NCBI GenBank assembly: GCA_029261635.1
Contig: JAJDAW010000029.1
Location: 1-45,148, forward strand
DNA length: 45,148 nt
DNA from: Nitrospinaceae bacterium
Lineage (GTDB): Bacteria; Nitrospinota; Nitrospinia; Nitrospinales; VA-1
Direction: 5' to 3'
Shown here: positions 9,469 through 32,003 of the stretch, piece by piece
How the letters are laid out: each line of letters begins with the position of its first letter
Position numbering within the stretch: the stretch's first letter is position 1
Position numbers and translations under genes: made by a program
The notes under the pieces: generated by a model
Seen by the model: only the letters and a program-made list of their open reading frames with translations
Told to the model about the DNA's origin: nothing
Database searches by the model: none

Positions 9469-9504
9469 TAAATAGAATAATTTTTAGACATCAGGAAAAC
9501 GAAA

Positions 9505-16230: not shown

Positions 16231-16309
16231 AAAAACAAAAAAACCCAGCAAAATTGCTGGGTTATGGATGCTATTGGATTTCCTGGTATGTAAAGTTGGT
16301 GGGGCGGGG
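16231..16309. repeat. Distal direct repeat (att-like): copy of the ssrA terminator plus the last ~14 nt of tmRNA
   Basis: Matches 31579-31658 with only a handful of mismatches. Similarity ends at ...ggtgg[g/a]gcgggg. Confidence 0.85.
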
Positions 16310-17514: not shown

Positions 17515-17527
17515 TGTTTACGGTGGG

Positions 17528-18585: not shown

Positions 18586-19368
18586 TTACTTTTTCATGTT
18601 TTTGCGGATGGTTTCCGGGCTATAGTTTTTCCCAATGTGCATATTGACAATCTGTAGAGCATACCAATTGTCTGATCTATCAGAATTTTTTCTTTTCAAT
18701 TCTCGATAGGCTTTCTGCCAGCCCTTATGTCTCGCCTGGGTATCCAGTTTATTGACTTCGCGCCTGGCTATTGAAGGGTCATATCGGTTTGCAGGGGGAG
18801 ACCGATCAACCATATTGAAAATGGCCTTCTGATCTATCTTGATTCCGCTATTTTCAAAATAAATAATTTCATTCAGCAGGAGTGAATACTCAGAAACTTT
18901 CAGCGACACGCGTTCCCCGCAAACCAATTCCAAAGAGCCTGTTTTTTTATTACCCTGCAAATCCCCGAGAAGAAAAATTTTGGTTTTCTTATCCTTTTTG
19001 GGTTTGGATTTTATACCAAGTTCTTGGCTAATCCATCCCGCAACCTGTCTTTCGGTAATTTGCCATTGTTTAAGGTAATCCAACGGAATGGGTATTCGTC
19101 CCATATCGTCACGCCGGTCACAAGCAACAAAGGCTCGTATGGTTTTTGCATTTACTGTTGGGGAAACATGTACCGGCATGAAACAGTTTTCTTCGCAACC
19201 CGGACACACTACCGACTTGGCAGGTTCTTTTGGCTTAATCCAACCCGCATTGAGAAATATTTCCAGCGCACCCTCTGGCCATTGGCGAATCTGTTCCCAT
19301 GAAACTGTGTCACCTTTTTTTAAACCAAGAGTCTGAGTCAGATCATTTAGAACATCATCCAATTTCAT
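18586..19368 (-). CDS. Hypothetical protein (260 aa) with a CPGCEENC motif; second gene of the island operon
   Basis: Long clean ORF. Its start overlaps the upstream stop (ATGA). Basic C-terminus. No family recognised. Confidence 0.6.
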   Translation of the reverse strand: MKLDDVLNDLTQTLGLKKGDTVSWEQIRQWPEGALEIFLNAGWIKPKEPAKSVVCPGCEENCFMPVHVSPTVNAKTIRAFVACDRRDDMGRIPIPLDYLKQWQITERQVAGWISQELGIKSKPKKDKKTKIFLLGDLQGNKKTGSLELVCGERVSLKVSEYSLLLNEIIYFENSGIKIDQKAIFNMVDRSPPANRYDPSIARREVNKLDTQARHKGWQKAYRELKRKNSDRSDNWYALQIVNMHIGKNYSPETIRKNMKK

Positions 19369-20555
19369 GAGGCGTTTTTGTCTTCGGTTGTTTCAAGTTC
19401 AATGGGTTCAATGCCGGAATCAGTCAGCATATTGCGGATAACCAAATCCCTTCCATCGTGACTAAGGGCGCACCAGTTGGGGTAACTTATTTTGAAGGTG
19501 CGTGTCCGGCTTCGGGTTTCGGGTGTTGGGGCAAAAACAACTTTTATCTCTGCCTGGGTGACATGAAATGGCGGTAGCTTGAGTTCTTCAATCAAATCAT
19601 AAATGGCTTTCGTATCAGGGGTAGGATCAGACTCAACAGTCACCCGCCGTTTCTCCCCAATTTTCAAACTCAATCTTAACTTTTTCACTGCCACTTCTTC
19701 TATTCCACAGTCCACCGGATACTTAAAAATAAAATCCCGATCCGTTAAAGTATCCAGAGCATATACTAGGTTGTCACCGACAAACTCTTCAAGCTCATCG
19801 AACCCGAGAACAGCATCCGCAAAAATCTGTTGTAATTGAGGAACGGACTTCGTATTGCGCGGAGCATAAATATCCAGCGATCCCTCAGCCTGAGTGTAAA
19901 CAAAGATAATTTCAAAAGCGGGTTGTCGGGCGCGATTGGAGAGAGAATTGCGAACCCATTCTATTCCGGACTGGGCGAAGTCCTCTGGGTAAGCAAAGAA
20001 ATACTCCTTTTCATTGCGGCGGAAAACCTCCACCTTGCAATTGCGCCCCCGGCCCTCCTTACTATAAAAATAGTTGCTGAGGGCATCCTCTAACTGTTTG
20101 GTGCTCTCTTCATTCACATTAGGTGGTAGGTGAGGCAAATCATTGCGTTTCTTCCAGAGAGATTCCGAAATGTTGTCCGAGTGTAGGAACAACCAGGCCC
20201 CAGCCCAGTATTTAGGATATTCTAAAAAAGTCCACATAACCTTGCCATGGAATCCATCAACTTTAGAAATAGCCTCGGGAAACTTTGTATCGTTATGATA
20301 ATTAGCCTCATCGGTCAATGCCATCACGCCACCTTGGTTGGCCATAGTGTCGATGTCCTGAAATTCCGCCCCAATTTTGGCTTGTTGCTCGGGGAGTAAG
20401 GCGATGAAGGCATGAAAAATAGGGTTAACCTCTGTTTCTTTTAATTGTTCAAAGTCGATCTTCTGCAACACGTTTTTCTTTTCTTGAAAATATCGCCCAA
20501 GCAAGACATTGGGAACGCGGCGGAAAAATTGGGTAGGAGAGTATTGGTGGGCCAT
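19365..20555 (-). CDS. Hypothetical protein (396 aa); first gene of the island operon
   Basis: Long clean ORF with an ATG start. No family recognised. Confidence 0.65.
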   Translation of the reverse strand: MAHQYSPTQFFRRVPNVLLGRYFQEKKNVLQKIDFEQLKETEVNPIFHAFIALLPEQQAKIGAEFQDIDTMANQGGVMALTDEANYHNDTKFPEAISKVDGFHGKVMWTFLEYPKYWAGAWLFLHSDNISESLWKKRNDLPHLPPNVNEESTKQLEDALSNYFYSKEGRGRNCKVEVFRRNEKEYFFAYPEDFAQSGIEWVRNSLSNRARQPAFEIIFVYTQAEGSLDIYAPRNTKSVPQLQQIFADAVLGFDELEEFVGDNLVYALDTLTDRDFIFKYPVDCGIEEVAVKKLRLSLKIGEKRRVTVESDPTPDTKAIYDLIEELKLPPFHVTQAEIKVVFAPTPETRSRTRTFKISYPNWCALSHDGRDLVIRNMLTDSGIEPIELETTEDKNAS

Positions 20556-20854
20556 AATTAAAGCTCCCTAGTTTTAAGGTTTTCTGTTGTCATTTTTAAC
20601 AAGAAAATGAGAATAAAGAAACAGATTTCAAAAATACGAATACGATCTATATAATAAGGAACCTTATTCATAAATCTTCCAACCTTCCTTTATTTTGCAA
20701 TCCGGTAAAATCTTTCTGTCTCCCCTAAATTTGTATATCGTTAAAAATTAAACAAAAGTTTTTTCGTCAGGAATTTCACTGCTATGCGATATATCCGAAG
20801 TTGGCAAGAAGTGGTTGTGCAGAACTGTCACAATTACGTCACTCATCATAAGTA

Positions 20855-20864
20855 CCCCCCCCCC
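20855..20864. repeat. Homopolymeric C10 tract in the control region upstream of the fibre locus
   Basis: agta-cccccccccc-tattaggg, counted directly. Its 3' end is part of the palindrome CCCTA-T-TAGGG. Confidence 0.9.
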
Positions 20865-21038
20865 TATTAGGGTATTGCCCTACAATGGGTAAGTGTGATA
20901 AATTGACATCTGCTGTAAACTAATATCGGATTGCCAATATGGGATGTTAAAGGTAAGATCCTAAATTTAGTAACACTTGGTATTCCAGTTCAAGCACGAG
21001 CAGGTAGTTTTCTGAGTTTTAGTTCAAATGGGGTGGTA

Positions 21039-21611
21039 ATGTCGATGTCTGTTTTAAAAGTTTTGCTGGCTTGCAAAGCTGTCATTTTATTCCTGCTTTT
21101 TGCTACCTCTCTTTATGCAGACAATGGGTCGATTGATAACTCGTTTTCCAGTAAAGATAGCGACTCCGAAAAGCTACTAGTGAGAACTCTGCGCAACCTA
21201 CAGTTTGGGGATGTGATTCCCATTAGGCAGGGTTTAGTAGTAGTTATTGAGCCTGCCACCGGAAATAAGACGGTTTTAGAAGGTATTGACGGAGGGGGTC
21301 GGTATGGTCCGGCTAAATTCGAGGTAAAAGGTCAGCCAAACAAGCAGTTTGTGGTTACGTTGCCCGACCAAATAGTCATGCTGGGGACGGGCATTAGGTC
21401 TGAGCTTTCCAGTTTTACGGCTTATCTTCCTCCCGATCAGGGAACCAGTCCCAACTCAAGTGGGCCAAAGACGAGTATGAGAGATGTCGTTGGTAGTCTG
21501 GATCAGTACGGTAAAGCCATAATTCTGGTTGGAGGGAAGTTCGTTTCGCGGGGTCGCCAAGCGGGAATAGGTATGTGTGTATTCTCGGTATTTGTAGATT
21601 ATTTACCCTGA
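21039..21611 (+). CDS. Divergent DUF4402/SCPU-like fibre subunit (first gene of the locus)
   Basis: Signal peptide (VLKVLLACKAVILFLLFATSLYA). LQFGDV...AKFEVKGQPNKQFVVTLP...LVGGKF...VFVDY follows the DUF4402 layout. ATG at 21039 is preferred over the listed TTG at 20931. Confidence 0.55.
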   Translation: MSMSVLKVLLACKAVILFLLFATSLYADNGSIDNSFSSKDSDSEKLLVRTLRNLQFGDVIPIRQGLVVVIEPATGNKTVLEGIDGGGRYGPAKFEVKGQPNKQFVVTLPDQIVMLGTGIRSELSSFTAYLPPDQGTSPNSSGPKTSMRDVVGSLDQYGKAIILVGGKFVSRGRQAGIGMCVFSVFVDYLP

Positions 21612-21638
21612 ATGGAGAGAGTGCCATGATGGGTTGTC

Positions 21639-22310
21639 TTGGAGGGCAATTTGTTAGATAAACGGTTATTTGGCGTAAGGCTCATTTTTGTAATGACGCT
21701 CTTACTGCCATGCTGGATGCCAAAAAACATAGATGCAGGAGTTGTGGGCGCAGGGCGGGGAACGGCGACCGTAACTGTGCCAGTAGTGGGCTCAATAACC
21801 AAGCCGCTCAAATTTGGCCTGATCTTACCCGGAGGGCGAAGAGGCAGCGATGGAGTGGTTGTGGTCACTCCCCAAAACAGACGTTTTACCAGGGGAGGTG
21901 TCAGGCTGGGTAATTGCGGTGATGACGGAGACAAAGACAAGGGCAAAGACAAGGACAAAGACAAAGACAAGGACAAAGACAAACATCGAGAAAGTAATCA
22001 GCGCGGAGGTAGAAGCAATCATGGAGATTGCACATTTAGCCGGGCCGAGTTCAATATGGCAGGTGCACCCAACACTTCTTTCATTGTTACCCTGTATAGC
22101 TCACCCGCTAGCCATACTGGCGGACATGGAAAAAATTTGCAGATTGCAAACCTCAAAAGTTTCAGTGTTACGCAAGGCGCTAATAGCTCGACAGGTCTGT
22201 TTGACGCGAGTGGTAAAGAAACAATCTGGGTGGGTGGCTCCCTTCAAGTTCCGGCACGGGCGAAAAAGGGCAGCTACACAGGAAAGATTACCTTGACGGT
22301 TAACTTTTAA
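21639..22310 (+). CDS. DUF4402/SCPU-like subunit with a Cys-flanked (Asp-Lys)n insertion
   Basis: GRGTATVTVPVVGSITKPLKFG... and C-terminal VGGSLQVPARAKKGSYTGKITLTVNF. The start is uncertain (TTG at 21639 or ATG at 21693). Confidence 0.6.
   Translation: MEGNLLDKRLFGVRLIFVMTLLLPCWMPKNIDAGVVGAGRGTATVTVPVVGSITKPLKFGLILPGGRRGSDGVVVVTPQNRRFTRGGVRLGNCGDDGDKDKGKDKDKDKDKDKDKHRESNQRGGRSNHGDCTFSRAEFNMAGAPNTSFIVTLYSSPASHTGGHGKNLQIANLKSFSVTQGANSSTGLFDASGKETIWVGGSLQVPARAKKGSYTGKITLTVNF
21930..21983 (+). repeat. In-frame hexanucleotide microsatellite (GACAAR)9
   Basis: gacaaa gacaag ggcaaa gacaag gacaaa gacaaa gacaag gacaaa gacaaa encodes DKDKGKDKDKDKDKDKDK. Confidence 0.95.
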
Positions 22311-22502
22311 GAATTGTTGTTTTTTTGTGGAGAAGAAATAACAAGCCAGACCACCCTCTGAAAGTCGATCTGGTCAAAAAAACTCACCGCTTTCAAAGTG
22401 GTAGTAGCAAAACTCGCAGTTTGAGGCTATGAGATTAGTAAAGGGTTAATCGTATAGCGCGATCCATTTATCTAAATTTTCTTTATTTTAAGGAATACGA
22501 TT

Positions 22503-22994
22503 ATGAAAATAAAAAGCATGTTGAAAATGGTAGCAGCAGTTCTTTTGATCACCAGTATGGCAGCTTCAAATGCATTGGCCGCAGATGGCACGGGTACGGC
22601 CACCGCTTCGGTGGTGATACCACTCGCCATGACAGAAATTAGAGTTTTAAATTTTGGTTCATTTTCGCCCAGTGCTTCTCCAGGGGTAGTACATATCGCA
22701 AACGGTTCATGGACTGCCAGTGGAGGGGTAACACTTATAGCGGGTGGTGGCGGTATCACTGGTATATTTGGTTTAACTGGACAACCCAACACAACCTATT
22801 CCCGCTCGATTGACTCAGTTATGACCCTGAGTAATGGTTCGGATATAATGACTGCAAACCTCAATTCTTTGGGTTCACTTATAAATTCAGGCGGAACTGG
22901 AGCAGTTGTGGTAGTTGGTGATCTAAGCGTTGCAGCAAATCAGCCAACGGGTGTTTATACGGGAACCTACAATCTTTCCGTTAACTATAACTAA
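22503..22994 (+). CDS. DUF4402/SCPU-like fibre subunit, tandem paralogue 1
   Basis: Signal peptide ...ASNALA/ADGTGTATASVVIPLA. C-terminal NQPTGVYTGTYNLSVNYN. RBS present. Confidence 0.8.
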   Translation: MKIKSMLKMVAAVLLITSMAASNALAADGTGTATASVVIPLAMTEIRVLNFGSFSPSASPGVVHIANGSWTASGGVTLIAGGGGITGIFGLTGQPNTTYSRSIDSVMTLSNGSDIMTANLNSLGSLINSGGTGAVVVVGDLSVAANQPTGVYTGTYNLSVNYN

Positions 22995-23044
22995 ATAACT
23001 GTTCCTAGTTTTCTTATAATTCTTAATTCGGGGAGTAATGCATT

Positions 23045-23551
23045 ATGAAAGTAAAAAGCATGTTGAAAATGGTAGCAGCAGTTCTTTTGATCACCAGTAT
23101 GGCAGCTTCAAATGCATTGGCCGCAGACGGTACCGGTACGGCCACCGCTAATGTAGTCGTGCCTCTCGCTATTACTAATACCATTGATTTGAACTGGGGT
23201 ACTTTTGCTCCTGATCCAACAACGCCAGGTACTGTTGAGGTTCCGGCAGCACAAGCGGGCCCCTTCAATTCAACGATCGTATCTTTATTGGCTCAAGGCT
23301 CAACTGGAACCATGGCTTTGACTGGTGACAACAACCGAAATATTATTACCACTATGAGTGCCAACCCTCATATTTTTACGGGAACCAATCCTGCAAACAT
23401 CATGACCGGAAACCTCAGTGTCCTTTCCCCTACTGCAACAGATTCTTTGGGAGGGGGAACAGTTTATATAGGTGGAGTTTTGGATGTGGGTGCGGGCCAA
23501 CCTGCAGATGTATACAGCGGTAACTATACGATTACTGTTAACTATAACTAA
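23045..23551 (+). CDS. DUF4402/SCPU-like fibre subunit, tandem paralogue 2
   Basis: ADGTGTATANVVVPLAITN..LNWGTF...GAGQPADVYSGNYTITVNYN. Confidence 0.8.
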   Translation: MKVKSMLKMVAAVLLITSMAASNALAADGTGTATANVVVPLAITNTIDLNWGTFAPDPTTPGTVEVPAAQAGPFNSTIVSLLAQGSTGTMALTGDNNRNIITTMSANPHIFTGTNPANIMTGNLSVLSPTATDSLGGGTVYIGGVLDVGAGQPADVYSGNYTITVNYN

Positions 23552-23560
23552 AATAATTGG

Positions 23561-23583
23561 ATGGGTCGTGTAACGCGATCCAT
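23561..23583 (+). promoter_or_regulatory. Intercistronic RNA stem-loop, copy 1
   Basis: atgggtcgtg-taa-cgcgatccat, a 10-bp stem including G.U pairs, 10 nt after the stop codon. Confidence 0.55.
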
Positions 23584-23604
23584 GTTATTTGAAGGAGTAC
23601 GACT

Positions 23605-24102
23605 ATGAAAGTAAAAAACATGTTGAAAATGGCAGTAGCAGCTCTCTTGTTTTCTGGAATGGCAGCATCCAGTGCATTGGCCGCAGACGGTACCGGTACG
23701 GCCACCGCTAACGTTGTTGTGCCTCTGGCTATTAATGAGGTTAGTCCTCTGAATTGGGGAACATTTGCTCCTGACCCAAGCAGTCCAGGTACTGTTACGG
23801 TTGGTACAACGGGTGTCCCTTCTTCAACGGTTGTATCTTATTTGACTCTAGGTGACCCAGGAATATTCAGTGTGACAGGTGACGGGAGTCGATCTTTTAT
23901 TACCAGTTTAAGTGCTAACCCTCATACCTTTACGGGTGCCAATCCTGCAAATACTATGACCGGAAATCTCGTTTTCCTTGCCCCTCCTGCTCTTACTGGT
24001 GGCGTTGCTGGAGTTCAAGTAGGAGGAACTTTGGATGTGGGTGCGGGTCAAGCTGCAGATGTGTACAGCGGTAATTACACGGTTACCGTTAACTATAACT
24101 AA
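23605..24102 (+). CDS. DUF4402/SCPU-like fibre subunit, tandem paralogue 3
   Basis: Same conserved ends. GAAGGAG RBS. Confidence 0.8.
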   Translation: MKVKNMLKMAVAALLFSGMAASSALAADGTGTATANVVVPLAINEVSPLNWGTFAPDPSSPGTVTVGTTGVPSSTVVSYLTLGDPGIFSVTGDGSRSFITSLSANPHTFTGANPANTMTGNLVFLAPPALTGGVAGVQVGGTLDVGAGQAADVYSGNYTVTVNYN

Positions 24103-24111
24103 AATAAATAG

Positions 24112-24136
24112 ATGGGTCGTGTAACGCGCGATCCAT
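24112..24136 (+). promoter_or_regulatory. Intercistronic RNA stem-loop, copy 2
   Basis: atgggtcgtg-taacg-cgcgatccat. Confidence 0.55.
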
Positions 24137-24162
24137 CCATACAGTGATAAAGGAATGCGACT

Positions 24163-24663
24163 ATGAAAGTAAAAAACATGTTGAAAATGGCAGTAGCAGC
24201 TTTATTGTTTTCTGGAATGATAGCTTCAAATGCATCGGCTGCAGACGGTACCGGTACGGCTACCGCTAGCGTTGTTGTGCCTCTCGCGGTTACCAATGTT
24301 CTTGATCTTAACTGGGGTTCTTTTTCTCCCGACCCAACAGTCCCCGGCACTGTTTCAGTTCCTGCGGATGGCAGCGCTGCTTCTTCAACGGTAGTATCAA
24401 TATTGTCGACAGGCTCGCATGGGCACATGACTGTGACGGGTGATGGTAGCCGGAGCTTTACCTCTTCTATAAGTGCTAACCCTCATACTTTTACGGGAAC
24501 CAATCCTGCAAACACCATGACCGGAAACCTCAGCCTTGACGCAGAAATTGCTCTCGTTGGTGGTTTTGGTGATATTGATGTGGGCGGAGTTTTGAATGTT
24601 GGTGCGGGTCAACCTGCAGATACATACAGCGGAAACTACACGGTTACTGTTAACTACAACTAA
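24163..24663 (+). CDS. DUF4402/SCPU-like fibre subunit, tandem paralogue 4
   Basis: Same conserved ends. Confidence 0.8.
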   Translation: MKVKNMLKMAVAALLFSGMIASNASAADGTGTATASVVVPLAVTNVLDLNWGSFSPDPTVPGTVSVPADGSAASSTVVSILSTGSHGHMTVTGDGSRSFTSSISANPHTFTGTNPANTMTGNLSLDAEIALVGGFGDIDVGGVLNVGAGQPADTYSGNYTVTVNYN

Positions 24664-24672
24664 AATAAATGG

Positions 24673-24695
24673 ATGGGTCGCGTAACGCGGCCCAT
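24673..24695 (+). promoter_or_regulatory. Intercistronic RNA stem-loop, copy 3
   Basis: atgggtcgcg-taa-cgcggcccat. It differs from copy 1 at paired positions while keeping the pairing. Confidence 0.55.
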
Positions 24696-24716
24696 GTTAT
24701 TTGAAGGAGTACGACT

Positions 24717-25214
24717 ATGAAAATAAAAAACATGTTGAAAATGGCAGTAGCAGCTCTCTTGTTTTCTGGAATGGCAGCATCCAGTGCATTGGCCGCAGAC
24801 GGTACCGGTACGGCCACCGCTAATGTAGTCGTGCCTCTCGCTATTACCAATAGCCTTGACCTTAACTGGGGTACTTTTGCTCCCGATCCAACAACCCCAG
24901 GCACTGTTACAGTTCCGCCCATTGGTGCTCCCAGTTCAACGGTTGTGTCTTATTTGAACCCAGGTACTGTAGGGTTAATGAATGTGACAGGTGATGGTAA
25001 CCGGAGTTTTGAGACTTCCATAAGTGCTAATCCTCATACCTTTACGGGTGCCAACCCTGCAAACACCATGACTGGACAGGTTGTTATTGTGGCACCTCCC
25101 GCTCTTGCTGCTGGTGTTGCTCAAGTTTTAGTAGGCGGAGAATTGGCTGTTGGTGCGGGTCAAGCTGCAGATGTGTACAGCGGTAATTACACGGTTACCG
25201 TTAACTACAACTAA
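24717..25214 (+). CDS. DUF4402/SCPU-like fibre subunit, tandem paralogue 5
   Basis: Same conserved ends. The 5' end is a mosaic of paralogues 3 and 2. Confidence 0.8.
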   Translation: MKIKNMLKMAVAALLFSGMAASSALAADGTGTATANVVVPLAITNSLDLNWGTFAPDPTTPGTVTVPPIGAPSSTVVSYLNPGTVGLMNVTGDGNRSFETSISANPHTFTGANPANTMTGQVVIVAPPALAAGVAQVLVGGELAVGAGQAADVYSGNYTVTVNYN

Positions 25215-25328
25215 ACAGTTGATCATTTGTAACTGGGTTTGGAGTGCCTTTTCTTGTTCTCTTTTCAGACAATAAAGGCTAATATAGGGGGTTGAATTTT
25301 GTGTTTAACATAAAGAGGCCGTGAAATT

Positions 25329-26264
25329 ATGAAAAGGGTTTTTGAATTAGGCAGTGGGTCTTTTTCTTCAAAGTTTTTAAAAGCCAAAGGGCTTGTGTCT
25401 TTTTTTAGTTGTTTCCTTTTTCTTACCCTCGCGGTAATGGGGCAGGGTATGGCTTTTGCGCAGGAAAAAGAAGGTGGTGTTGGTAGTGTTATGGTTGCCC
25501 CGACCCGCATTGTTTTCGAGGGCCGTACACGGTCTGCGCAAGTGAAAGTGATCAATCAGGGCACTAAAGCAGGTACCTATCGCATCAGCTTCAAAGATAT
25601 GCGTATGAAGGAAGATGGAACCTACGAAGATGTTAAAGAAGCTCTGTCCGATGAAAAGTCCGCTAAGGATCTAATTCGCTATTCCCCTCGTCAGGTAGTG
25701 TTGAAGCCAGGAGAATCCCAAACAGTTCGCTTGCTTTTGCGAAAAAAGAAGGGGCTCCCGGAAGGTGAATATCGTTCTCATATGTTATTCACTGCTCTTC
25801 CTCCTGAAGATGCAGGGGCAGACATTGAGTCTCTTGCTGGTAAAGATGGTGAGGTGACTTTGAAGTTGTTCGCCATCTTTGGTGTGTCTATCCCAGTCAT
25901 TGTTCGGCATGGAAAGGGTTCGGCATCAGCAGAAATGGCCGACCTCAAGCTCAAAGAACCTGAAGAACCCGACGCCCCCGATGCCCAAAAGACTGTTTCC
26001 ATACGTCTTAACAGGAAGGGCAACCAATCTCTTTATGGCGATATTCATGCCAAATTTACACCCAATGGTGGTGGCGAGGAGTTGGAGGTTGGTGTGATAA
26101 CAGGGGTGGCCGTCTACGACCCAAATAAAACCCGAGTGATTAATCTAAAGTTGAACCCTCCAGAGGGAACGGAACTTAAGCAGGGACGTTTGCATGTGGT
26201 TTATCGAGACGACCCAGATAAGAGTGACAAAATTTTGGCTGAAAGCCAGTTACAGATACCCTAA
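25329..26264 (+). CDS. PapD-like periplasmic pilus chaperone
   Basis: Signal peptide, then VMVAPTRIVFEGRTRSAQVKVINQGTKAGTYRISF and RYSPRQVVLKPGESQTVRLL, the PapD_N-type pattern. Position is between the subunit genes and the usher-like gene. Confidence 0.75.
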   Translation: MKRVFELGSGSFSSKFLKAKGLVSFFSCFLFLTLAVMGQGMAFAQEKEGGVGSVMVAPTRIVFEGRTRSAQVKVINQGTKAGTYRISFKDMRMKEDGTYEDVKEALSDEKSAKDLIRYSPRQVVLKPGESQTVRLLLRKKKGLPEGEYRSHMLFTALPPEDAGADIESLAGKDGEVTLKLFAIFGVSIPVIVRHGKGSASAEMADLKLKEPEEPDAPDAQKTVSIRLNRKGNQSLYGDIHAKFTPNGGGEELEVGVITGVAVYDPNKTRVINLKLNPPEGTELKQGRLHVVYRDDPDKSDKILAESQLQIP

Positions 26265-26272
26265 GGCGGTAT

Positions 26273-29200
26273 TTGAAATTATGTTTTGGGAAAATATTCC
26301 GATACGTATTAATGCGTGCATATATTTGCATTTTGGGCGTTGCCTTTCTGGTAATGTCCGGGGTGGCATTTCCACTTTTTACCGAAGCCAAAGGGGCGGC
26401 GACCCCTGTGGTTTCGCAGGAGCCTGATAAAAAGACCACATCCTCCGAAACACCCTCCCCCGCAACTTCGCAAGCTCCTGATAAAACAACCGAACCCTCA
26501 GTTACGCTTCCACCAGATAAAGCAGGATCACCTTCTGCAAAAGATACTAAAGCAGATCAGGTTGAGGCAAAAGCTCCCGGGAATAGTCAGGAAAGTGTTT
26601 TTGACCTCTCCAAAGCAGAGTTTCTGGTTCTAGAACTTCGGTTTGACCGTTATATTTTGAATGATGCTTTACTCGGTTATCTTTATCGCGATAGATTGCT
26701 GCTCCCCTTGGGTGAAGTGGTGCGATCTCTCGACTTTGCTATCAATGTTGATGTTGATGCAAAACGAGCTGAGGGCTGGTTTCTTTCTGAGAATAGGCGG
26801 TTTTTTCTTGATGTAGGCCGCAATGAGCTAGTGATAAACGGACGCGCAAAAAGTTTTGATCCTAATCAGGTGGTTCTTGATCCCGAGGACATTTTTATCG
26901 ATAGTACTCTGCTGGAAAAATGGTTTCCGGTGAATTTCGAGTTTAGCCTTTCGTCCTTGCTTGTAAAAGTAACATCGGAAGAAACACTGCCCTTTCAATC
27001 CCGTTTGCTACGCGAAGAGGCGCAGTCCACTATAGGGCGAGGCTCAAAGGCAGAAAAATACCCGCGGCAAGAACTCCCTTATGTTTTCTTGGACTGGCCT
27101 TCCATCGATTCAAGTTATAATTTTGATTACAGCAATGCTGATGAAGGAAACCTGGGAGCTAATTCCAGTACCTTGATCAGCGGCGATTTCCTTTTTATGA
27201 ATACAGAAGTATTCACGACAGGTAACAAGGATGATGTCATTTCCAGCCTGCGAATGAAAATGGGTCGGGAAGATTCGGATGCAAAGTTACTGGGGCCTCT
27301 CAAGGTCACCGAGTTTTCCATGGGCGATATTTCCAGCCCACAGTTACCGTTGGTAGCCAGAGGTGCAACAGGTGTTGGCCTTCAGCTTTCTAATTTCCCC
27401 TTACGTCAGGAGTCTGAGTTTGACCGGATCAATCTGCGAGGAGAGTTGCAAGCAGGTTGGGAGGTAGAACTATATCGAAATGAAATTCTACTCAACGTTC
27501 AAAGCGAGCCTGATGCTAACGGACGCTATGAGTTTCTGGATGTTCCTTTGTTATTTGGTTCCAATGTGCTACGTCTGGTGTTTTATGGGCCGCAGGGCCA
27601 GAGACGAGAAAAAATTCAGCGCCTGAATGTTGGAGGAGACCAAGCTTCACCTGGAAAACAGTATTTTCGTTTTTCCACAACCTATCAGAACGAAAAATTA
27701 TTTGAAGTAAGTGATCAGGAAACCGATATCTTTGTTGAAAAAGGTGATGGCAAAGCGCGCTATACCCTCGAATACCAACGAGGCCTCAACCGGTGGCTGT
27801 CAATGGATGCAATTTTTGCCAGTCTGCCATTACCGGATGGACGACGTTATTTTAGCACTTTGGGACTAAAAACGGGGCTTTTCGGGGCATCCACACGTGT
27901 GAATTTGACGAAAAATGATGTAGGTGGAACTGCTTTTGAATCTTCTGTTTTGATGGGGTTGGGTCCTCTCAGCATGTTTTTTGAGCATACCCAATTTTTT
28001 GATTTTCTAAGTGAGCGGGAAACCAACACAGGAGATTCGGTTGTCAGCCGCAGTGAAACGCGTTTGGACAGTTCGATACCAGCGTGGTTGTTTGTCCCGC
28101 GTATTCCCTGGTCTATAAGCGGGTCCATGGAAGTGCAAGAGTCAGGTTTAAAACAAATTGAACTCAGTAACCGTCTTTCAGTACTTTATTCAGGAGTTTC
28201 TGCCTCAAACACAACCGATTGGTCGTTAACCCGAGGCGGCGATGCTGAACCCAGCACAAGTGGTTCGGGTTCAGCTCAGTTGAGTGGGCGTATATCTAAT
28301 GTGTCTCTGCGTGGTACTTTGAGTTATGAAATTTTACCAAATACCATTTTCAACAGCGCTTCCCTTAGTAGTGATTTCAAGATCAGTCAGGATTTCAGTG
28401 CTAACCTTGGGTTGAACAAGCAACTCACTGATGATGGGCTGACCAGTTATAGCGCAGGAATTAACCGTCGATTCACGGCATTTTCTATTGGTCTCAATGC
28501 TTCTTATGATAATACCGGTGCCTTTTCTGCGGGTACTTCCATTACTTACAGCCTGGGTCGCGAACCCAGGAAAGGGAGTTGGGGCCATAGTTCTGATCGA
28601 ATGGCCAGTTCTGGTATGGTATCTGTTCGAGTGTTTCTCGACACAAATGCGAATCAGGTTTTTGATGAAGGGGACGAGCCTTTAAAGGGGGTTAAAGTTG
28701 CACCGGGCGGTGATGACCAAAAAACCGATGAGGATGGGATTCTTCTGCTGAGAGGATTGAGTAGTAGCCAGCCCACCAATATCGTTCTGGATACAGATAG
28801 TCTGGAGGATCCCTATTGGGTTCCTTCACGAAAAGGTTATGAAGTGATCGGTCGACCGGGACGGCCCATTATGCTGGAGTTCCCCGTCACCCCTACAGGA
28901 GAAATTGATGGGACTGTATACTTGCTTACGGGTGACTCTGAAAAACCTGTGGGCAACGTGCAGATACAACTGGTAAATGACAAGCAGGAAGTGATCCAAG
29001 AGGTGAAGAGCGAGTATGATGGATTCTACTTGATACAACTGGTACCTCAAGGGCGGTACAGTCTTATAATTTCTCCGGATCAGATCAAGCGGCTGGGCTT
29101 GAAAACTCCTGATCCAAAGGAAGTGATTATTGCAGGAGAAGAAACTCTACAGAGTGGAGTGGATTTACTACTTGAGCAAGTTAACCCTGTAAAAAACAAA

Positions 29201-29662
29201 GCAAAAAAAGAAAAATCCAAATCAGTCAGTGAAAAGTCGACTAATGAAAAATCAGCCAGCTACAAATCCGCTGATGTAAAAAAACCAACTGCTGAGGAGT
29301 CAGATATAGTGGAAATGTCCTCAATGGTCTTTGGACCACTTAACCAACCTCCAAATCAGAGTAAAACTCCTGAAATAGAGACTTCAGATAGCCGGAAATT
29401 GAGTGCTCCCGAGAAAACCCTCAAATTTATTGTAAAAAAAATAAAAGTTGCAGGTAGCAGCCTTTTTCCAAAAGAGGAACTCGAAGCACTGGTGAAGCTT
29501 GACGGCGGTAAAGAGGTTGGCTTGGAGGAGTTAATTTTACTGGCACAGAAACTCACTTCTTATTATGTTTTACACGGTTATTTTTTGTCTAAAGCCTATA
29601 TTCCCGCCCAAAAGCTAATAGATGGGAGTGTTGAAATTTATATGACTGAGGAAAAAAATTAA
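26273..29662 (+). CDS. Giant outer-membrane usher-like protein with a C-terminal beta-sandwich pair, Lys-rich linker and ShlB-type POTRA domain
   Basis: Signal peptide and S/T/P-rich linker. AGWEVELYRNEILLNVQSEPDANGRYEFLDVPLLFGSNVLRLVFYGPQGQ resembles the usher middle-domain motif. C-terminal VRVFLDTNANQVFDEGDEPLKGVKV and GEIDGTVY...GFYLIQLVPQGRYSL modules, then a POTRA_2-like tail. Start is TTG at 26273 or ATG at 26312. Confidence 0.6.
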   Translation: MKLCFGKIFRYVLMRAYICILGVAFLVMSGVAFPLFTEAKGAATPVVSQEPDKKTTSSETPSPATSQAPDKTTEPSVTLPPDKAGSPSAKDTKADQVEAKAPGNSQESVFDLSKAEFLVLELRFDRYILNDALLGYLYRDRLLLPLGEVVRSLDFAINVDVDAKRAEGWFLSENRRFFLDVGRNELVINGRAKSFDPNQVVLDPEDIFIDSTLLEKWFPVNFEFSLSSLLVKVTSEETLPFQSRLLREEAQSTIGRGSKAEKYPRQELPYVFLDWPSIDSSYNFDYSNADEGNLGANSSTLISGDFLFMNTEVFTTGNKDDVISSLRMKMGREDSDAKLLGPLKVTEFSMGDISSPQLPLVARGATGVGLQLSNFPLRQESEFDRINLRGELQAGWEVELYRNEILLNVQSEPDANGRYEFLDVPLLFGSNVLRLVFYGPQGQRREKIQRLNVGGDQASPGKQYFRFSTTYQNEKLFEVSDQETDIFVEKGDGKARYTLEYQRGLNRWLSMDAIFASLPLPDGRRYFSTLGLKTGLFGASTRVNLTKNDVGGTAFESSVLMGLGPLSMFFEHTQFFDFLSERETNTGDSVVSRSETRLDSSIPAWLFVPRIPWSISGSMEVQESGLKQIELSNRLSVLYSGVSASNTTDWSLTRGGDAEPSTSGSGSAQLSGRISNVSLRGTLSYEILPNTIFNSASLSSDFKISQDFSANLGLNKQLTDDGLTSYSAGINRRFTAFSIGLNASYDNTGAFSAGTSITYSLGREPRKGSWGHSSDRMASSGMVSVRVFLDTNANQVFDEGDEPLKGVKVAPGGDDQKTDEDGILLLRGLSSSQPTNIVLDTDSLEDPYWVPSRKGYEVIGRPGRPIMLEFPVTPTGEIDGTVYLLTGDSEKPVGNVQIQLVNDKQEVIQEVKSEYDGFYLIQLVPQGRYSLIISPDQIKRLGLKTPDPKEVIIAGEETLQSGVDLLLEQVNPVKNKAKKEKSKSVSEKSTNEKSASYKSADVKKPTAEESDIVEMSSMVFGPLNQPPNQSKTPEIETSDSRKLSAPEKTLKFIVKKIKVAGSSLFPKEELEALVKLDGGKEVGLEELILLAQKLTSYYVLHGYFLSKAYIPAQKLIDGSVEIYMTEEKN

Positions 29663-30107
29663 AAAGATTCATGTTGCCGACATTAAATATTTTAATAAAA
29701 AACCGGTTGATACGAAGCGCATCAAAGCAAAACCAAGTAGTAGAAAACCAGCCAGCCACAAACCCATTGATGCAAAAAAATCTACTGCTTCTAAACTAGC
29801 TATCGAAGAAGATTTGTTAGACAGGTTTTTACCGTCCCCAAAGTCACCTTACGAATCTTCCCCTAAGGCTGAAGCACCTGAAATCAATGTTCAAGATAGA
29901 CGAGAACCAGTTGATCCCGAAAAAGGCCCCAAACTCCTTGCAAATAAAGTTGAAGACGCTGGTAACAGCCTTTCCCTAAAGGAGGAACTAGAAGCATCGG
30001 TGAAATTGAATGAAGGTAAAGAGAGAGGCATGGGGGTGATGTTTTATTGGCGGGCTGCTGCATTTACTTATTTCGGAGCGTGCTTCTTTCTATGTATCTC
30101 AGGATAA
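29663..30107 (+). pseudogene. Out-of-frame (+1) continuation of the usher-like gene: rest of the POTRA strand plus a truncated divergent duplicate of the linker and POTRA start
   Basis: The +1 frame from 29649 reads (E)KIKKIHVADIKYFNKKPVD...KPASHKPIDAKK...KVEDAGNSLSLKEELEASVKLNEGKE, paralleling 29248-29520. Similarity is lost after ~30030. Confidence 0.5.
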
Positions 30108-30276
30108 TTTTTTATTTAAAGTCGACATTTACGCCAAAAACTAACAAATAGGATTGTTAAAATTAGAGTGGGCTTCATTGACTAGACAGTTTTTCATGGA
30201 AATAAGATAGTAAGAATGTGTAAGTAGCAGGTCCCACGGGCAATAAGGAGTGGGGAAATAAAATAAGCACAAATCC

Positions 30277-31482
30277 TCAAGCCCCTCGCCGTAACGGAAT
30301 CACTTCCGCACCAGCTTTTAGTTTGTCAAGATAATCCGCCCATTGTTGCATCATCTTCTTACGTTCGTGAAGGTGTGCTGTTCTGTTATACGCCCGTCCA
30401 TTAGGATCACGCACGGCATGGGCTAGTTGGTGTTCAATGAAGTCGGGACGAACTCCCAACACTTCATCCAGAATCGTTCTGGCCATAGCTCGGAATCCGT
30501 GACCGCTCATTTCTTCTTTGCCGATTCCCATGCGCCGCATTGCCGCGAGGATAGCGTTGTCGCTCATAGGTCGGTCTTTGCTACGCGCTCCCGGAAAAAC
30601 ATAACGTCCGTTTCCCGTTAGAGGTTGTATTTCCTTTAAGATTTCTACAGCTTGCCAGGACAAGGGAACAATGTGGAGGGTGTCGGTTTTGGTCACTGTA
30701 TAACGCCATTCCAGTTTTTCAAAATCAATATCCTTCCATTCGGCTTTGCGCAATTCGCCGGGGCGAACGAATACTAAAGGCGCAAGGCGTAGAGCACAGG
30801 CAACAATAAGGGAACCTTCATAGCCATCGATGGCCCGCAAAATTTCTGCCACTTGTTTGGGTTCTGTAACGGCGGCGAAGTGCTCACCCTTTGCCGGGGG
30901 TAATGCGCCACGAAGGTCGCCGGAGGGATCGCGCTCGGCGCGTCCGGTAGCAACCGCATAACGGAAGACTTGCCCACAGTTTCCCAAAGCCCGGTGCGCT
31001 GTTTCCAAGGCTCCTCGCTTTTCAATTCGCTGTATCGCAGAAAGCAAAACTGGTGCGGTTACGTTGGCAATCGGTTTGTCACCAATCCAAGGGAACACAT
31101 CCCTTTCGAGACGACGAATGATTCGACCACCATGATCGGCGGTCCAGTTCGTAGAGTATTTGGCGAACCACTCCCTTGCAATAACTTCAAAACTGTTTCC
31201 TCCACCGTTTGCTAACTTTTGAGCTTTCCGATTTTCGCTCGGATCAATACCATCTGCTAACAACTTACGGGATTCATCACGCCGTTCCCTTGCCATCTTC
31301 AAAGTCACGTCAGGGTAAACGCCAAGGGAAAGGCGTTTTTCCTTTCCATTAAATCTATACTTTAACCGCCACCACTTTCCACCGTTCGGGGAGACTTCCA
31401 TATATAGGCCGCGTTCATCATATAGTTTGATGGTCTTATCGCCGGGCTTGGTGTTTCGGATTGCGGTGTTGGTTAGAGGCAT
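30277..31482 (-). CDS. int: P4/CP4-57-type (DUF4102-containing) tyrosine integrase
   Basis: MPLTNTAIRNTKPGDKTIKLYDERGLYMEVSPNGGKWWRLKYRFNGKEKRLSLGVYPDVTLKMARERRDE is the canonical N-terminus. Catalytic HGFRAMART...HQLAH. ATG at 31482 has AAGGAG 8 nt upstream and is preferred over the listed TTG at 31521. Confidence 0.9.
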   Translation of the reverse strand: MPLTNTAIRNTKPGDKTIKLYDERGLYMEVSPNGGKWWRLKYRFNGKEKRLSLGVYPDVTLKMARERRDESRKLLADGIDPSENRKAQKLANGGGNSFEVIAREWFAKYSTNWTADHGGRIIRRLERDVFPWIGDKPIANVTAPVLLSAIQRIEKRGALETAHRALGNCGQVFRYAVATGRAERDPSGDLRGALPPAKGEHFAAVTEPKQVAEILRAIDGYEGSLIVACALRLAPLVFVRPGELRKAEWKDIDFEKLEWRYTVTKTDTLHIVPLSWQAVEILKEIQPLTGNGRYVFPGARSKDRPMSDNAILAAMRRMGIGKEEMSGHGFRAMARTILDEVLGVRPDFIEHQLAHAVRDPNGRAYNRTAHLHERKKMMQQWADYLDKLKAGAEVIPLRRGA

Positions 31483-31578
31483 GGGGGCAACTCCTTTTTG
31501 GGGCAGGCTAGTAGCCCCCAATTATGCCCCCAGTTGCCCCCGGATGTCAATAAACTCTATGGGGCAAATCTGGACAGT

Positions 31579-31658
31579 TAAAAGCAAAAAACCCAGCAAA
31601 ATTGCTGGGTTACGGATGCTATTGGATTTTCTGGGATGTCAAATTGGTGGAGGCGGGG
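31579..31658. repeat. Proximal direct repeat (att-like) overlapping the ssrA 3' end and terminator
   Basis: Partner of 16231-16309. Confidence 0.85.
31584..31610 (-). terminator. ssrA terminator
   Basis: On the minus strand: cccagc-aatttt-gctggg followed by tttttt. Confidence 0.75.
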
Positions 31659-32003
31659 GGAATCGAACCCCCGTCCGAAAGGTTTTGGTCAAAGGCGTCT
31701 ACATGCTTATCTTCTGATTTAAATCTTGTTCCGACGAACTCCCAGAAGCAGGATTAAGTCGAAACCAGTTCCTAAAAATCTCGTCCCATTTACTCGGAAC
31801 ATGTAAACAGAACCAGTTCGCTGAGTGACGTCCGACCCACATCCCGCGAACATGGACATGGCGGACGGTAACCGTTTAAATTAAGCGGCTACAGCTACAT
31901 CATAATCGTTGGCGATTATGTAAAAGCCGTTTTTTAACGGGCCAACGGCATCCCGTGCATGCAACCCTTGCGTCTGCTCTCCCGTCGAATCCGGATCGCC
32001 CCC
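31645..32003 (-). ncRNA. ssrA: tmRNA (SsrA)
   Basis: Minus strand 5' GGGGGCGAUCCGGAUUCGACGGGA...GCAUGC...GUUGGCC.GUUAAAAA... and 3' ...GGACGGGGGUUCGAUUCCCCCCGCCUCCACCA. Acceptor stem has a G3:U pair. Tag reading frame GCC AAC GAU UAU GAU GUA GCU GUA GCC GCU UAA gives ANDYDVAVAA (31881-31913). Confidence 0.92.

What the first reader, a model, noticed from the sequence alone, without database searches (positions are those of the whole stretch)
28613..29662. Usher-like protein ends in a ShlB/FhaC-type POTRA domain, an unusual architecture
Seen:
- After the presumed barrel region come two beta-sandwich-like modules: VRVFLDTNANQVFDEGDEPLKGVKV...DEDGILLLRGL (SdrD-B-like) and GEIDGTVYLL...VQIQLVND...YDGFYLIQLVPQGRYSL (CarboxypepD_reg-like).
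- A Lys/Ser-rich linker follows.
- The last segment is KFIVKKIKVAGSSLFPKEELEALVKLDGGKEVGLEELILLAQKLTSYYVLHGYFLSKAYIPAQKLIDGSVEIYMTEEK (29423-29659).

Known: that last segment fits the POTRA_2 pattern, which normally sits at the N-terminus of TpsB (ShlB/FhaC) two-partner-secretion transporters. Classical ushers instead end in two Ig-like CTDs.

Inference: there are two possibilities. One is a new usher accessory module, a periplasmic substrate-docking POTRA appended after CTD-like domains. The other is a fusion or truncation scar with a lost TpsB-like gene.
Basis: partly seen in the sequence, partly recalled or inferred. Interest (0 to 1): 0.65.

Follow-up and report, generated by a model that had tools for sequence, protein, structure and literature searches.

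The report
Pilus usher with captured POTRA tail
A pilus-assembly pore protein on a genomic island of a marine nitrite-oxidising bacterium carries at its end a copied piece of an unrelated secretion protein; this is a one-off gene-fusion remnant, not a conserved new machine, though the piece still looks foldable.

Summary
ORF 26273-29662 (1129 aa) ends in a complete ShlB-type POTRA_2 domain (Pfam E 2e-15; AF2 model closest to the TpsB4 POTRA1 structure). Its core has the FimD/PapC usher fold: NTD, 24-strand barrel with plug, two CTDs.

The gene closes an operon of seven DUF4402 pilins and a PapD-like chaperone. The operon sits on a 15.3-kb island at ssrA in a Nitrospinaceae genome.

The tail is not a family feature. 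None of 119 aligned homologues, 83 related loci or the protein-database hits listed (top 150 and 6) combines an usher with a POTRA. Relatives end after CTD2, or add a SPOR domain (~30%) or a Lys/Ser-rich tail.

The last 125 residues match residues 36-159 (H1 region, linker, POTRA1) of this clade's conserved chromosomal TpsB (61% aa identity, E 4e-36). No POTRA2 or barrel sequence exists in the window.

The captured piece plus about 20 linker codons was duplicated in tandem. Copy 2 (29709-30175) is now broken. Copy 1 ends at a stop made by one extra A in an A7 run, exactly at the POTRA1 boundary.

Verdict: a lineage-specific chimera or scar that yields an usher with a tethered periplasmic POTRA. 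Weak signals (dN/dS 0.14, frames open longer than neutral drift predicts) leave about 30% for a working accessory domain.

The parts
20931..25214 (+). Seven tandem DUF4402 (PF14352) pilin-like genes: 20931-21611, 21639-22310, 22503-22994, 23045-23551, 23605-24102, 24163-24663, 24717-25214
   Evidence: Pfam E 1.5e-10 to 2e-17. Nitrospina relatives have the same operon of seven genes plus chaperone plus usher.
25329..26264 (+). PapD-like periplasmic chaperone (311 aa)
   Evidence: PapD_N PF00345, 28.4 bits against a cut-off of 23, E 1.8e-6.
26273..29662 (+). Usher-like outer-membrane gene, 1129 aa from TTG 26273. The gene caller's product P0001 is 1116 aa, which would fit a start at ATG 26312.
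   Evidence: ORF list; P0001; AF2 mean pLDDT 82, above 90 for residues 110-970; Foldseek top 18 hits are FimD or PapC.
26618..26977 (+). Periplasmic N-terminal domain (residues 116-235), preceded by a signal peptide and a Pro/Ser/Thr-rich disordered stretch (residues 30-110)
   Evidence: AF2 secondary structure and pLDDT. Foldseek alignments to full-length FimD span about 920 columns.
27101..28561 (+). 24-strand beta-barrel (residues 277-763), with a six-strand plug (residues 385-453, nt 27425-27631) inserted after strand 6
   Evidence: DSSP on the AF2 model gives 6 strands, a 6-strand sandwich, then 18 strands. Matches PapC and FimD translocation pores at E 1e-15 to 1e-13.
28613..28852 (+). 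CTD1-equivalent beta-sandwich (residues 781-860)
   Evidence: AF2; conserved across the family.
28862..29179 (+). CTD2-equivalent beta-sandwich (residues 864-969). The conserved family core ends here.
   Evidence: AF2; sub-threshold CarboxypepD_reg and SdrD_B hits at 879-936. All homologue matches end at query residues 967-1009.
29180..29284 (+). Lys/Ser-rich disordered linker (residues 970-1004), shared with the closest homologue P0002
   Evidence: Alignment A2; tail list; pLDDT below 50.
29285..29659 (+). TpsB-derived unit 1 (residues 1005-1129). It holds the H1-region and linker equivalent (29285-29425) and a complete POTRA_2 (29426-29650).
   Evidence: tblastn with the L087 TpsB: residues 36-159, 61% identity, E 4e-36. 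Pfam; AF2 and Foldseek.
29652..29662 (+). A7 run (29652-29658) and the stop codon TAA (29660-29662) that it creates. One A fewer would restore the TpsB frame (…EEK IKKIHVAD… against TpsB …AEGK INKIEVSG…).
   Evidence: Sequence; translation of the next frame; alignment with TpsB orthologues. Logan contigs agree.
29664..29708 (+). End of unit 1 in the +1 frame (KIHVADIKYFNKKPV), corresponding to the first strand of TpsB POTRA2; no longer translated
29709..30175 (+). Decayed tandem copy (unit 2). It holds a Lys/Ser-rich piece (29709-29792) and a TpsB-derived piece (29793-30175). It is open for 148 codons in the +1 frame, then broken by a 19-nt insertion, a 1-nt deletion and a stop.
   Evidence: Direct repeats with spacing 496-527, 72-74% identity; DNA alignment; tblastn E 4e-14 to copy 1 and 6e-17 to TpsB; translation. 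Not detected by the POTRA HMM.
30277..31521 (-). Integrase with Arm-DNA-bind_3 and Phage_int_M domains, at the island's right end
   Evidence: Pfam E 1.9e-37 and 3.9e-29.
31586..31650 (.). Right copy of the 65-bp direct repeat, overlapping the 3' end of ssrA (tmRNA 31645-32003, minus strand)
   Evidence: blastn 92% over 65 bp; ARAGORN and Rfam tmRNA.
16238..16302 (.). Left copy of the 65-bp direct repeat, marking the left end of the ~15.3-kb island (G+C 0.44-0.47 against about 0.38 in the flanks)
   Evidence: A second integrase (16399-17514, minus strand) and an HTH_17 gene lie next to it.

Best explanation
The gene encodes the outer-membrane usher of a DUF4402-type chaperone-usher pilus system. 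The system is cargo of a 15.3-kb integrative island at ssrA in a Nitrospinaceae bacterium. The usher is complete: NTD, 24-strand barrel with plug, CTD1 and CTD2.

How the tail arose (shown or strongly inferred):
1. Behind CTD2 the gene already had the Lys/Ser-rich disordered tail also seen in its closest relative.
2. A roughly 400-bp copy of the 5' part of a TpsB (ShlB/FhaC-type) transporter gene from the same bacterial lineage was joined to it in frame. The copy covers the mature N-terminus: H1 region, linker, POTRA1 and the first strand of POTRA2. It lacks the signal peptide, the rest of POTRA2 and the barrel.
3. The captured piece, together with about 20 linker codons, was then duplicated in tandem.
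4. One extra A in an A7 run later created a stop exactly at the POTRA1/POTRA2 boundary. The second copy has since collected frameshifts and a stop.

What the product is (inferred): an usher with one intact POTRA domain hanging in the periplasm on a disordered tether of about 80 residues. Both ends of an usher face the periplasm, so the topology is compatible.

The tail is a one-off, lineage-specific accretion that is already being trimmed. Most likely it is tolerated baggage and is not needed for pilus assembly.
For: Origin of the tail:
- Tail residues 1005-1128 match TpsB residues 36-159 at 61% aa identity (70% in the POTRA), E 4e-36, and 71% nt identity.
- Copy 2 matches the same TpsB stretch and keeps ancestral residues that copy 1 lost (PVDPEKGPKLL, YVSQ).
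- The two copies share an upstream Lys/Ser-rich piece that TpsB lacks (74% over 68 nt). This points to duplication in place, after the fusion.

Donor and host:
- The TpsB is a conserved chromosomal gene of the host clade. The window's PurD is 95% and 92% identical to two Nitrospinales/Nitrospinaceae MAGs. Both MAGs carry the TpsB at 91-95% identity to L087.
- No other TpsB part is in the window.

Uniqueness:
- No POTRA_2 was found in the top 120 homologues or in 83 related loci scanned with a POTRA HMM.
- Among the best 150 of 1386 POTRA matches in 1.84 billion representatives, nearly all lie in the N-terminal part of TpsB-type proteins, and none lies at the end of a long usher-sized protein.
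- A search with CTD2 plus tail found no protein covering both halves.
- Relatives end after CTD2, or add SPOR or low-complexity tails.

Decay:
- Copy 2 is broken.
- The stop arises from a frameshift relative to the TpsB frame.
- The donor TpsB is itself decaying in several lineages.

Usher identity. Island. Not an assembly artefact.
Against: - Copy 1 is fully intact. Its POTRA shows dN/dS of 0.14 against the parent TpsB.
- Under simulated neutral drift at the observed divergence, copy 1's 160-codon tail would stay free of stops in only about 1.4% of runs, and copy 2's 127 open codons in about 3.6%. This suggests the tail was kept translatable for a long time.
- The frameshift stop trims the protein exactly at a domain boundary.
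- The family accepts functional periplasmic C-terminal domains (SPOR).
- All of these are compatible with a tail that is, or recently was, useful.
- Only one instance exists, at about 5x depth, so population-level evidence is absent.
Confidence: 0.6

Rival explanations
1. The tethered POTRA is a working accessory module. It acts as a periplasmic docking site on the usher. It could bind extended polypeptide by beta-augmentation, for example chaperone-free pilin, the N-terminal extensions of DUF4402 subunits, or a TPS-domain protein. It could also contact the resident TpsB or the BAM machinery. It would have been acquired by domain shuffling and kept by selection.
For: - The POTRA fold is intact at high confidence.
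- dN/dS is 0.14 for the POTRA against TpsB.
- Both units stayed open longer than neutral simulation predicts (P about 0.014 and 0.036).
- The stop lies exactly at the domain boundary.
- The periplasmic topology fits.
- Relatives carry another periplasmic domain (SPOR) at the same place in about 30% of cases.
- POTRA_2 has also been recruited to other outer-membrane proteins, for example the BcsC-like P0167.
Against: - It is a singleton among hundreds of family members and billions of database proteins.
- The second unit is decaying, and the frame was cut by a homopolymer frameshift.
- dN/dS between the two copies is 0.77, that is, weak constraint since the duplication.
- Much of the low dN/dS against TpsB may date from before the capture.
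- No TpsA-like partner is in the island or next to the donor TpsB.
- The tail POTRA has about 4-5 times more amino-acid change than TpsB orthologues show among themselves.
Confidence: 0.3
2. The stop in the A7 run is bypassed by a +1 ribosomal frameshift or transcriptional slippage, or it is a sequencing error. The real product would then run on to 30107 (about 1277 aa) with a second unit.
For: - The downstream +1 frame is open for 148 codons and continues the TpsB homology across the run.
- Homopolymer runs are slippage-prone (general knowledge).
- Depth is only about 5x.
Against: - Two assemblies of the run agree on A7.
- Seven A's is short for efficient slippage.
- The extension would only add a linker and a POTRA already destroyed by a 19-nt insertion, ending in unrelated residues.
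- No recoding signal was looked for or seen.
Confidence: 0.04
3. The join of usher and POTRA is an assembly chimera between an usher contig and a TpsB contig of the metagenome.
For: Low depth in a mixed Nitrospinaceae community. Logan unitigs break at 28574/28586 and 30004/30019.
Against: - The core-tail join (29180-29290) lies inside a single 1434-nt Logan contig with no differences.
- Sample X4 bridges the break at 28574-28586.
- The tail is only about 71% identical in DNA to the clade's real TpsB and is not followed by POTRA2 or a barrel. It therefore cannot be that gene mis-joined.
- The in-frame fusion through a linker shared with P0002, and the diverged tandem copy, are not what a chimera would give.
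Confidence: 0.03

Closest known systems
Chaperone-usher pilus ushers (FimD, PapC; Pfam Usher PF00577)
   Same: The predicted architecture matches: periplasmic NTD, 24-strand barrel with a plug after strand 6, and two C-terminal beta-sandwich domains. Foldseek's top 18 hits are FimD or PapC. The operon also holds a PapD-like chaperone and several small pilin-like subunits.
   Different: About 10% sequence identity. No PF00577, PapC_N or PapC_C hit and no PDB profile hit. The subunits are DUF4402, not fimbrial or SCPU pilins. The protein has a long disordered N-terminal spacer. The extra C-terminal linker plus POTRA has no counterpart in described ushers (no paper found).
TpsB / Omp85 transporters of two-partner secretion (FhaC, ShlB, CdiB, TpsB4/LepB)
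   Same: The tail is homologous to the mature N-terminus and POTRA1 of a bona fide TpsB of the same clade (61-70% identity). It fits PF08479 end to end and models onto the TpsB4 POTRA1 at 1.7 A.
   Different: There is no signal peptide in front of it, no POTRA2, no 16-strand ShlB barrel and no TpsA partner. It sits at the C-terminus of another outer-membrane protein rather than at the N-terminus of its own barrel.
SPOR-tailed and Lys/Ser-tailed members of the same DUF4402-associated usher family (e.g. P0050, P0057, P0002)
   Same: Same core, ending at the same CTD2 boundary, followed by a periplasmic C-terminal appendage. About 35 of 119 have a ~93-aa SPOR-like tail, one has two, and P0002 shares the Lys/Ser-rich tail.
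   Different: SPOR tails recur across many genomes and usually follow CTD2 directly or after a short spacer. The POTRA tail occurs once, sits on an 80-residue disordered tether, and comes with a decayed duplicate.
TpsB-like proteins with several tandem POTRA_2 domains (P0121-P0125, P0128)
   Same: They have repeated [linker-POTRA_2] units, as in the window's two units. They were the top-scoring hits for the tail.
   Different: In those proteins the repeats precede an intact ShlB barrel. Identity to the tail is only 30-36%. The window's units share a linker piece derived from the usher tail, which argues for duplication in place.

Membership tests
Chaperone-usher usher (FimD/PapC type) | 24-strand outer-membrane beta-barrel with a plug domain inserted between strands 6 and 7 | tested here: met
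   On a predicted structure only. AF2 DSSP gives 6 strands, a 6-strand sandwich (385-453), then 18 strands, with pLDDT above 90. Foldseek matches PapC and FimD pores at E 1e-15 to 1e-13.
Chaperone-usher usher (FimD/PapC type) | Periplasmic N-terminal domain and two C-terminal beta-sandwich domains | tested here: met
   AF2 domains at 116-235, 781-860 and 864-969. Alignments to full-length FimD and PapC span 750-950 columns, E 7e-27.
Chaperone-usher usher (FimD/PapC type) | Sequence membership in Pfam Usher PF00577 (with PapC_N and PapC_C) | tested here: not met
   No hit at E up to 1. A family profile finds no usher in the PDB. It has the usher fold but is not a member of the Pfam family.
Chaperone-usher usher (FimD/PapC type) | Operon with a PapD-like chaperone and pilin subunits | tested here: met
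   PapD_N above cut-off. Seven DUF4402 genes lie upstream. The same operon is conserved in Nitrospina relatives.
Chaperone-usher usher (FimD/PapC type) | Subunits polymerise by donor-strand exchange at the usher | not testable with these tools
   The DUF4402 profile has no PDB sequence match. No complex modelling or experiment was possible.
TpsB / ShlB-FhaC transporter | ShlB-type POTRA (PF08479) | tested here: met
   56.8 bits, E 2e-15, profile positions 1-75 of 76. Fold confirmed.
TpsB / ShlB-FhaC transporter | Second POTRA and a 16-strand ShlB barrel (PF03865) C-terminal to POTRA1 | tested here: not met
   No PF03865 hit. tblastn with a full TpsB finds only residues 36-159 in the window.
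TpsB / ShlB-FhaC transporter | Own signal peptide, with the POTRA at the N-terminus of the protein | tested here: not met
   The homologous stretch starts just after the TpsB signal peptide and is preceded by the usher and a Lys/Ser linker.
TpsB / ShlB-FhaC transporter | Adjacent TpsA substrate gene with a TPS domain | tested here: inconclusive
   No large exoprotein-like ORF is in the island or the window flanks that were scanned. None lies within 5 kb of the donor TpsB. Not every ORF was scanned.
Integrative island at ssrA | Integrase next to the tmRNA 3' end, with a direct repeat of that end at the far border | tested here: met
   tmRNA 31645-32003; integrase 30277-31521; 65-bp repeat at 16238-16302 and 31586-31650; G+C shift.

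The most novel reading that the evidence does not exclude
The tail is a natural domain transplant that works. A substrate-recognition POTRA from a two-partner-secretion transporter would be tethered to the periplasmic exit side of a pilus usher. There it would capture extended polypeptide (pilin subunits or a TPS-type protein) or link the usher to the TpsB or BAM machinery. That would make it the first usher with a POTRA accessory domain, in a chaperone-usher class (DUF4402 pilins, ushers invisible to Pfam, often SPOR-tailed) for which no description was found in the paper library searched here.
Probability: 0.25. Interest if true: 0.65.

Novelty: new variant of a known kind. Interest (0 to 1): 0.4.

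Why it matters
As a one-off chimera the tail says little about how pili are generally built. It is, however, a well-resolved example of domain shuffling between two outer-membrane secretion systems. The donor gene, the junctions, the tandem duplication and the later trimming can all be read from the sequence.

If the tail were functional, it would show that a POTRA can operate at the C-terminus of an unrelated barrel protein.

The background finding may matter more. DUF4402 operons encode a widespread chaperone-usher system (at least 571 loci in species-representative genomes) in marine and sediment bacteria. No paper in the library searched mentions DUF4402. Standard sequence models miss its usher, and about a third of the ushers examined carry a peptidoglycan-binding SPOR tail.

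Tried and rejected
- The word-index protein search with the tail alone found nothing. The exhaustive representative search and the metagenome scan were needed.
- A single-protein scan of genome contigs with the usher found no close relative. The alignment-based scan did.
- PDB sequence-profile searches gave no usher for the core and nothing useful for the DUF4402 pilins.
- NCBIfam gave no name for the usher, pilin or island ORFs.
- Literature searches for DUF4402, for chaperone-usher with Nitrospina, and for POTRA with usher fusion found nothing relevant.
- The first AF2 run could not model the tail, because the alignment had no cover there. It was redone with POTRA homologues.
- I considered a multi-POTRA TpsB as the donor of both units. 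I rejected this in favour of duplication in place, because both units carry the usher-type Lys/Ser piece.
- I considered that island insertion had truncated a resident TpsB. I rejected this: the fragment lies inside the island, the TpsB site in relatives is elsewhere, and no barrel remnant exists.
- The second sample X4 holds parts of the usher and integrase but has no contig over the tail, at 2-5x depth. This is uninformative.
- A loose contig end at 28619 was not reproduced on a narrower stretch.
- PADLOC on the island's unknown ORFs gave nothing convincing.
- The promoter and terminator scan of 29000-30400 was no better than shuffles.


Full report
**What is at the locus**

ORF 26273-29662 (+) encodes 1129 aa. 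Upstream lie seven DUF4402 (PF14352) genes of 163-226 aa (20931-25214) and a PapD_N-type chaperone (25329-26264). Downstream lie about 600 bp of non-coding DNA, an integrase on the minus strand (30277-31521; Arm-DNA-bind_3, Phage_int_M) and ssrA (tmRNA 31645-32003, minus strand).

A 65-bp direct repeat (31586-31650 and 16238-16302, 92% identity) bounds a 15.3-kb island, together with a G+C step from about 0.38 to 0.44-0.47. The island also holds a second integrase, an HTH_17 gene and two ORFs without matches.

The host is a Nitrospinales/Nitrospinaceae bacterium. The flanking PurD is 95% and 92% identical to two such MAGs. The sequence comes from a biofilm metagenome.

**Checking the observation**

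- Pfam places POTRA_2 (PF08479) at residues 1052-1126, covering 75 of 76 profile positions, at 56.8 bits (cut-off 24) and E 2e-15.
- Modelled with an alignment of POTRA homologues, residues 1051-1125 fold with pLDDT above 90 into a beta-alpha-alpha-beta-beta unit.
- The nearest solved structure is the N-terminal POTRA of the P. aeruginosa TpsB4 (rmsd 1.7 A over 74 columns, 32% identity). CdiB, FhaC and BamA POTRAs follow.
- The two beta-sandwich modules and the Lys/Ser-rich linker are present as described. The weak CarboxypepD_reg and SdrD_B matches, however, both fall on the second module and are below Pfam's cut-offs.

**Is it an usher?**

Sequence methods say nothing. There is no PF00577 hit, no NCBIfam name and no usher in a PDB profile search.

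The AF2 model (119-sequence alignment, pLDDT above 90 for residues 110-970) shows:
- an N-terminal domain (116-235);
- six strands, a six-strand sandwich (385-453), then eighteen strands, that is, a 24-strand barrel with a plug after strand 6;
- two C-terminal sandwiches (781-860 and 864-969).

Foldseek's top 18 PDB hits are all FimD or PapC, at E 7e-27 to 8e-13 and about 10% identity. Together with the chaperone and pilin-like genes, this supports a chaperone-usher system.

The protein is a whole usher plus a tail.

**Is the tail a family feature?**

No.
- 303 homologues were found. The best 120 (34-72% identity) carry no PF08479 apart from the window's own protein.
- In alignments, the conserved core ends at window residue ~968.
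- Of 119 aligned members, 82 stop within 50 residues of that point.
- About 35 add a ~93-aa tail. Three of these were tested and are SPOR domains (one member has two).
- P0002 (the closest, 72% identity) and P0043 have long low-complexity tails.
- Only the window has a POTRA.
- A genome-collection scan found at least 571 loci of the family across Nitrospinota, Zixibacteria, Rhodospirillales, Acidobacteriota, Desulfobacterales and others. In the 80 loci kept, matches end at query residues 721-1009, most at 967-1009.
- A POTRA HMM run on six-frame translations of 83 related loci (up to 6 or 8 kb of flank) hit nothing.
- In Nitrospina the operon (GerE regulator, seven DUF4402 genes, chaperone, 920-aa usher) is followed by a convergent glycosyltransferase, not a TpsB.
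- A search with CTD2 plus tail returned six proteins, each covering only one half.

**Where the tail came from**

An exhaustive phmmer search of 1.84 billion representatives gave 1386 hits. Nearly all of the 150 listed have the match in the N-terminal part, none at the end of a long usher-sized protein, and eight of the ten scanned with Pfam carry a ShlB barrel. The best listed hits are only 25-47% identical to the tail.

A metagenome scan then found much closer relatives (70% in the POTRA). This is a canonical 575-613-aa TpsB: signal peptide, H1 region, linker, POTRA_2, second POTRA and ShlB barrel.

That TpsB is a conserved chromosomal gene of the host's own clade. It lies between nadC and an M48 peptidase gene, followed by a Glu/Leu dehydrogenase gene, with no TpsA within 5 kb. 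It is present in the two MAGs closest to the window, at 91-95% identity to L087, and its N-terminal 135 residues are almost invariant in those checked.

Window residues 1005-1128 align without gaps to TpsB residues 36-159, that is, from just after the signal peptide to the end of POTRA1 (61% identity, E 4e-36, 71% nt identity). Nothing else of the TpsB is in the window.

**The tandem duplicate and the stop**

DNA 29709-30175 is a diverged copy of 29216-29700. It shows 72-74% identity in the best blocks and 62% over 105 aligned codons.
- It matches copy 1 at E 4e-14 and TpsB residues 40-155 at E 6e-17.
- Both copies begin with a homologous Lys/Ser-rich piece that TpsB lacks and that continues the usher's own tail. 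The duplication therefore happened in place, after the fusion.
- Copy 2 keeps ancestral residues lost in copy 1 (and YVSQ). It is nonetheless broken by a 19-nt insertion, a 1-nt deletion and a stop, and it no longer scores as a POTRA.

Copy 1's stop (TAA 29660-29662) follows an A7 run. With one A fewer, the frame reads …EEKIKKIHVAD…, parallel to TpsB …AEGKINKIEVSG…, which is the first strand of POTRA2. So the stop is a frameshift product that happens to cut exactly at the domain boundary.

An independent Logan assembly of the same run reproduces the join, the A7 run and copy 2 with no differences, at about 5x depth. A second sample bridges the only nearby unitig break.

**Scar or module?**

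For decay:
- The tail is a singleton.
- Copy 2 is broken, and the stop was made by a frameshift.
- dN/dS between the copies is 0.77 (dS 0.69).
- The tail POTRA has dN 0.17 against TpsB, whereas TpsB orthologues differ by 0.04.
- The donor TpsB is itself frameshifted in L090/L091 and internally deleted to a 234-aa POTRA-only ORF in L084/L088/L182.

For retention:
- Copy 1 is intact, with dN/dS of 0.14 against TpsB in the POTRA.
- In a neutral simulation at the per-branch divergence observed (0.26), a 160-codon tail stays stop-free in 1.4% of runs, and the 127 open codons of copy 2 in 3.6%.
- The C-terminus of an usher is periplasmic (established for FimD and PapC), which is where POTRA domains work. 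Relatives also carry SPOR domains at this position.

These tests rest on short, partly low-complexity sequence and on one genome. They do not settle the matter. I put about 0.6 on a tolerated, decaying chimera, about 0.3 on a currently useful tethered POTRA, and the small remainder on read-through or artefact.

**Comparison and novelty**

The core works like, and folds like, a FimD/PapC usher, but it fails sequence membership in PF00577. The tail is a true homologue of TpsB POTRA1, but it lacks every other defining part of a TpsB.

No paper in the library mentions DUF4402, and none describes an usher-POTRA fusion.

The fusion is a new variant of a known kind with modest interest. The DUF4402 chaperone-usher family and its SPOR-tailed ushers are probably the more useful lead.

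Noticed in passing
window 20931-29662; L001-L083: DUF4402 pilin-like genes, a PapD-like chaperone and a 900-1200-aa outer-membrane protein form a chaperone-usher system whose usher is visible only by predicted fold. At least 571 loci occur in species-representative genomes of many phyla, and no paper in the library mentions DUF4402.
   Followed up: partly
homologues P0040, P0044, P0050, P0057, P0063, P0070-P0105 (tails after window residue 968): About 30% of the 119 aligned family ushers end in a ~93-aa tail with a conserved Cys pair (…WCNPL…). Three were tested and are SPOR domains; one protein has two. This suggests that many of these ushers are tied to peptidoglycan.
   Followed up: partly
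window 16238-31650: A 15.3-kb island at ssrA is bounded by 65-bp direct repeats. It has two integrases (16399-17514 and 30277-31521, both minus strand), an HTH_17 gene (17528-17971) and two overlapping ORFs of 260 and 396 aa (18586-20555, minus strand) with no Pfam, NCBIfam or PADLOC match.
   Followed up: partly
L087, L176-L180 (intact); L090/L091 3885-4968; L084, L088, L182 8001-9082: The Nitrospinaceae TpsB sits between nadC and an M48 peptidase gene, with no TpsA nearby. It is frameshifted in one lineage and internally deleted in another, where a 234-aa ORF with only a signal peptide and POTRA domains remains (P0271). It looks like an orphan transporter that is being lost repeatedly.
   Followed up: partly
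P0121-P0125, P0128, P0132, P0167: Some TpsB-type proteins have two to four tandem POTRA_2 domains before the barrel. A 1429-aa BcsC-like protein has two N-terminal POTRA_2 domains ahead of TPR repeats and a BCSC_C barrel. POTRA_2 is therefore shuffled more widely than its Pfam description suggests.
   Followed up: no
window 21639-22310; P0004-P0008 and P0027: One DUF4402 paralogue carries a (Lys-Asp)n low-complexity insert. Several Nitrospinaceae ushers carry a ~75-residue insertion inside CTD2.
   Followed up: no
window 22503-25214: Five of the seven pilin genes are close paralogues: four share 67-81% identity and the fifth 44% with the reference, all with near-identical signal peptides. This points to recent tandem amplification of the major subunit.
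   Followed up: no
window 28619 (runs X1, X4): In both samples one contig matched the window only from 28619 (the start of CTD1) onward, with 255 unlike bases before it. It may come from a related usher gene sharing the 3' part. It was not recovered when a narrower stretch was laid.
   Followed up: partly
window 1257-11025: The left flank is a flagellar gene cluster (FlgI 5452-6579, FlgK 7786-9468, a flagellin-like gene 9505-11025) in a Nitrospinaceae genome.
   Followed up: no
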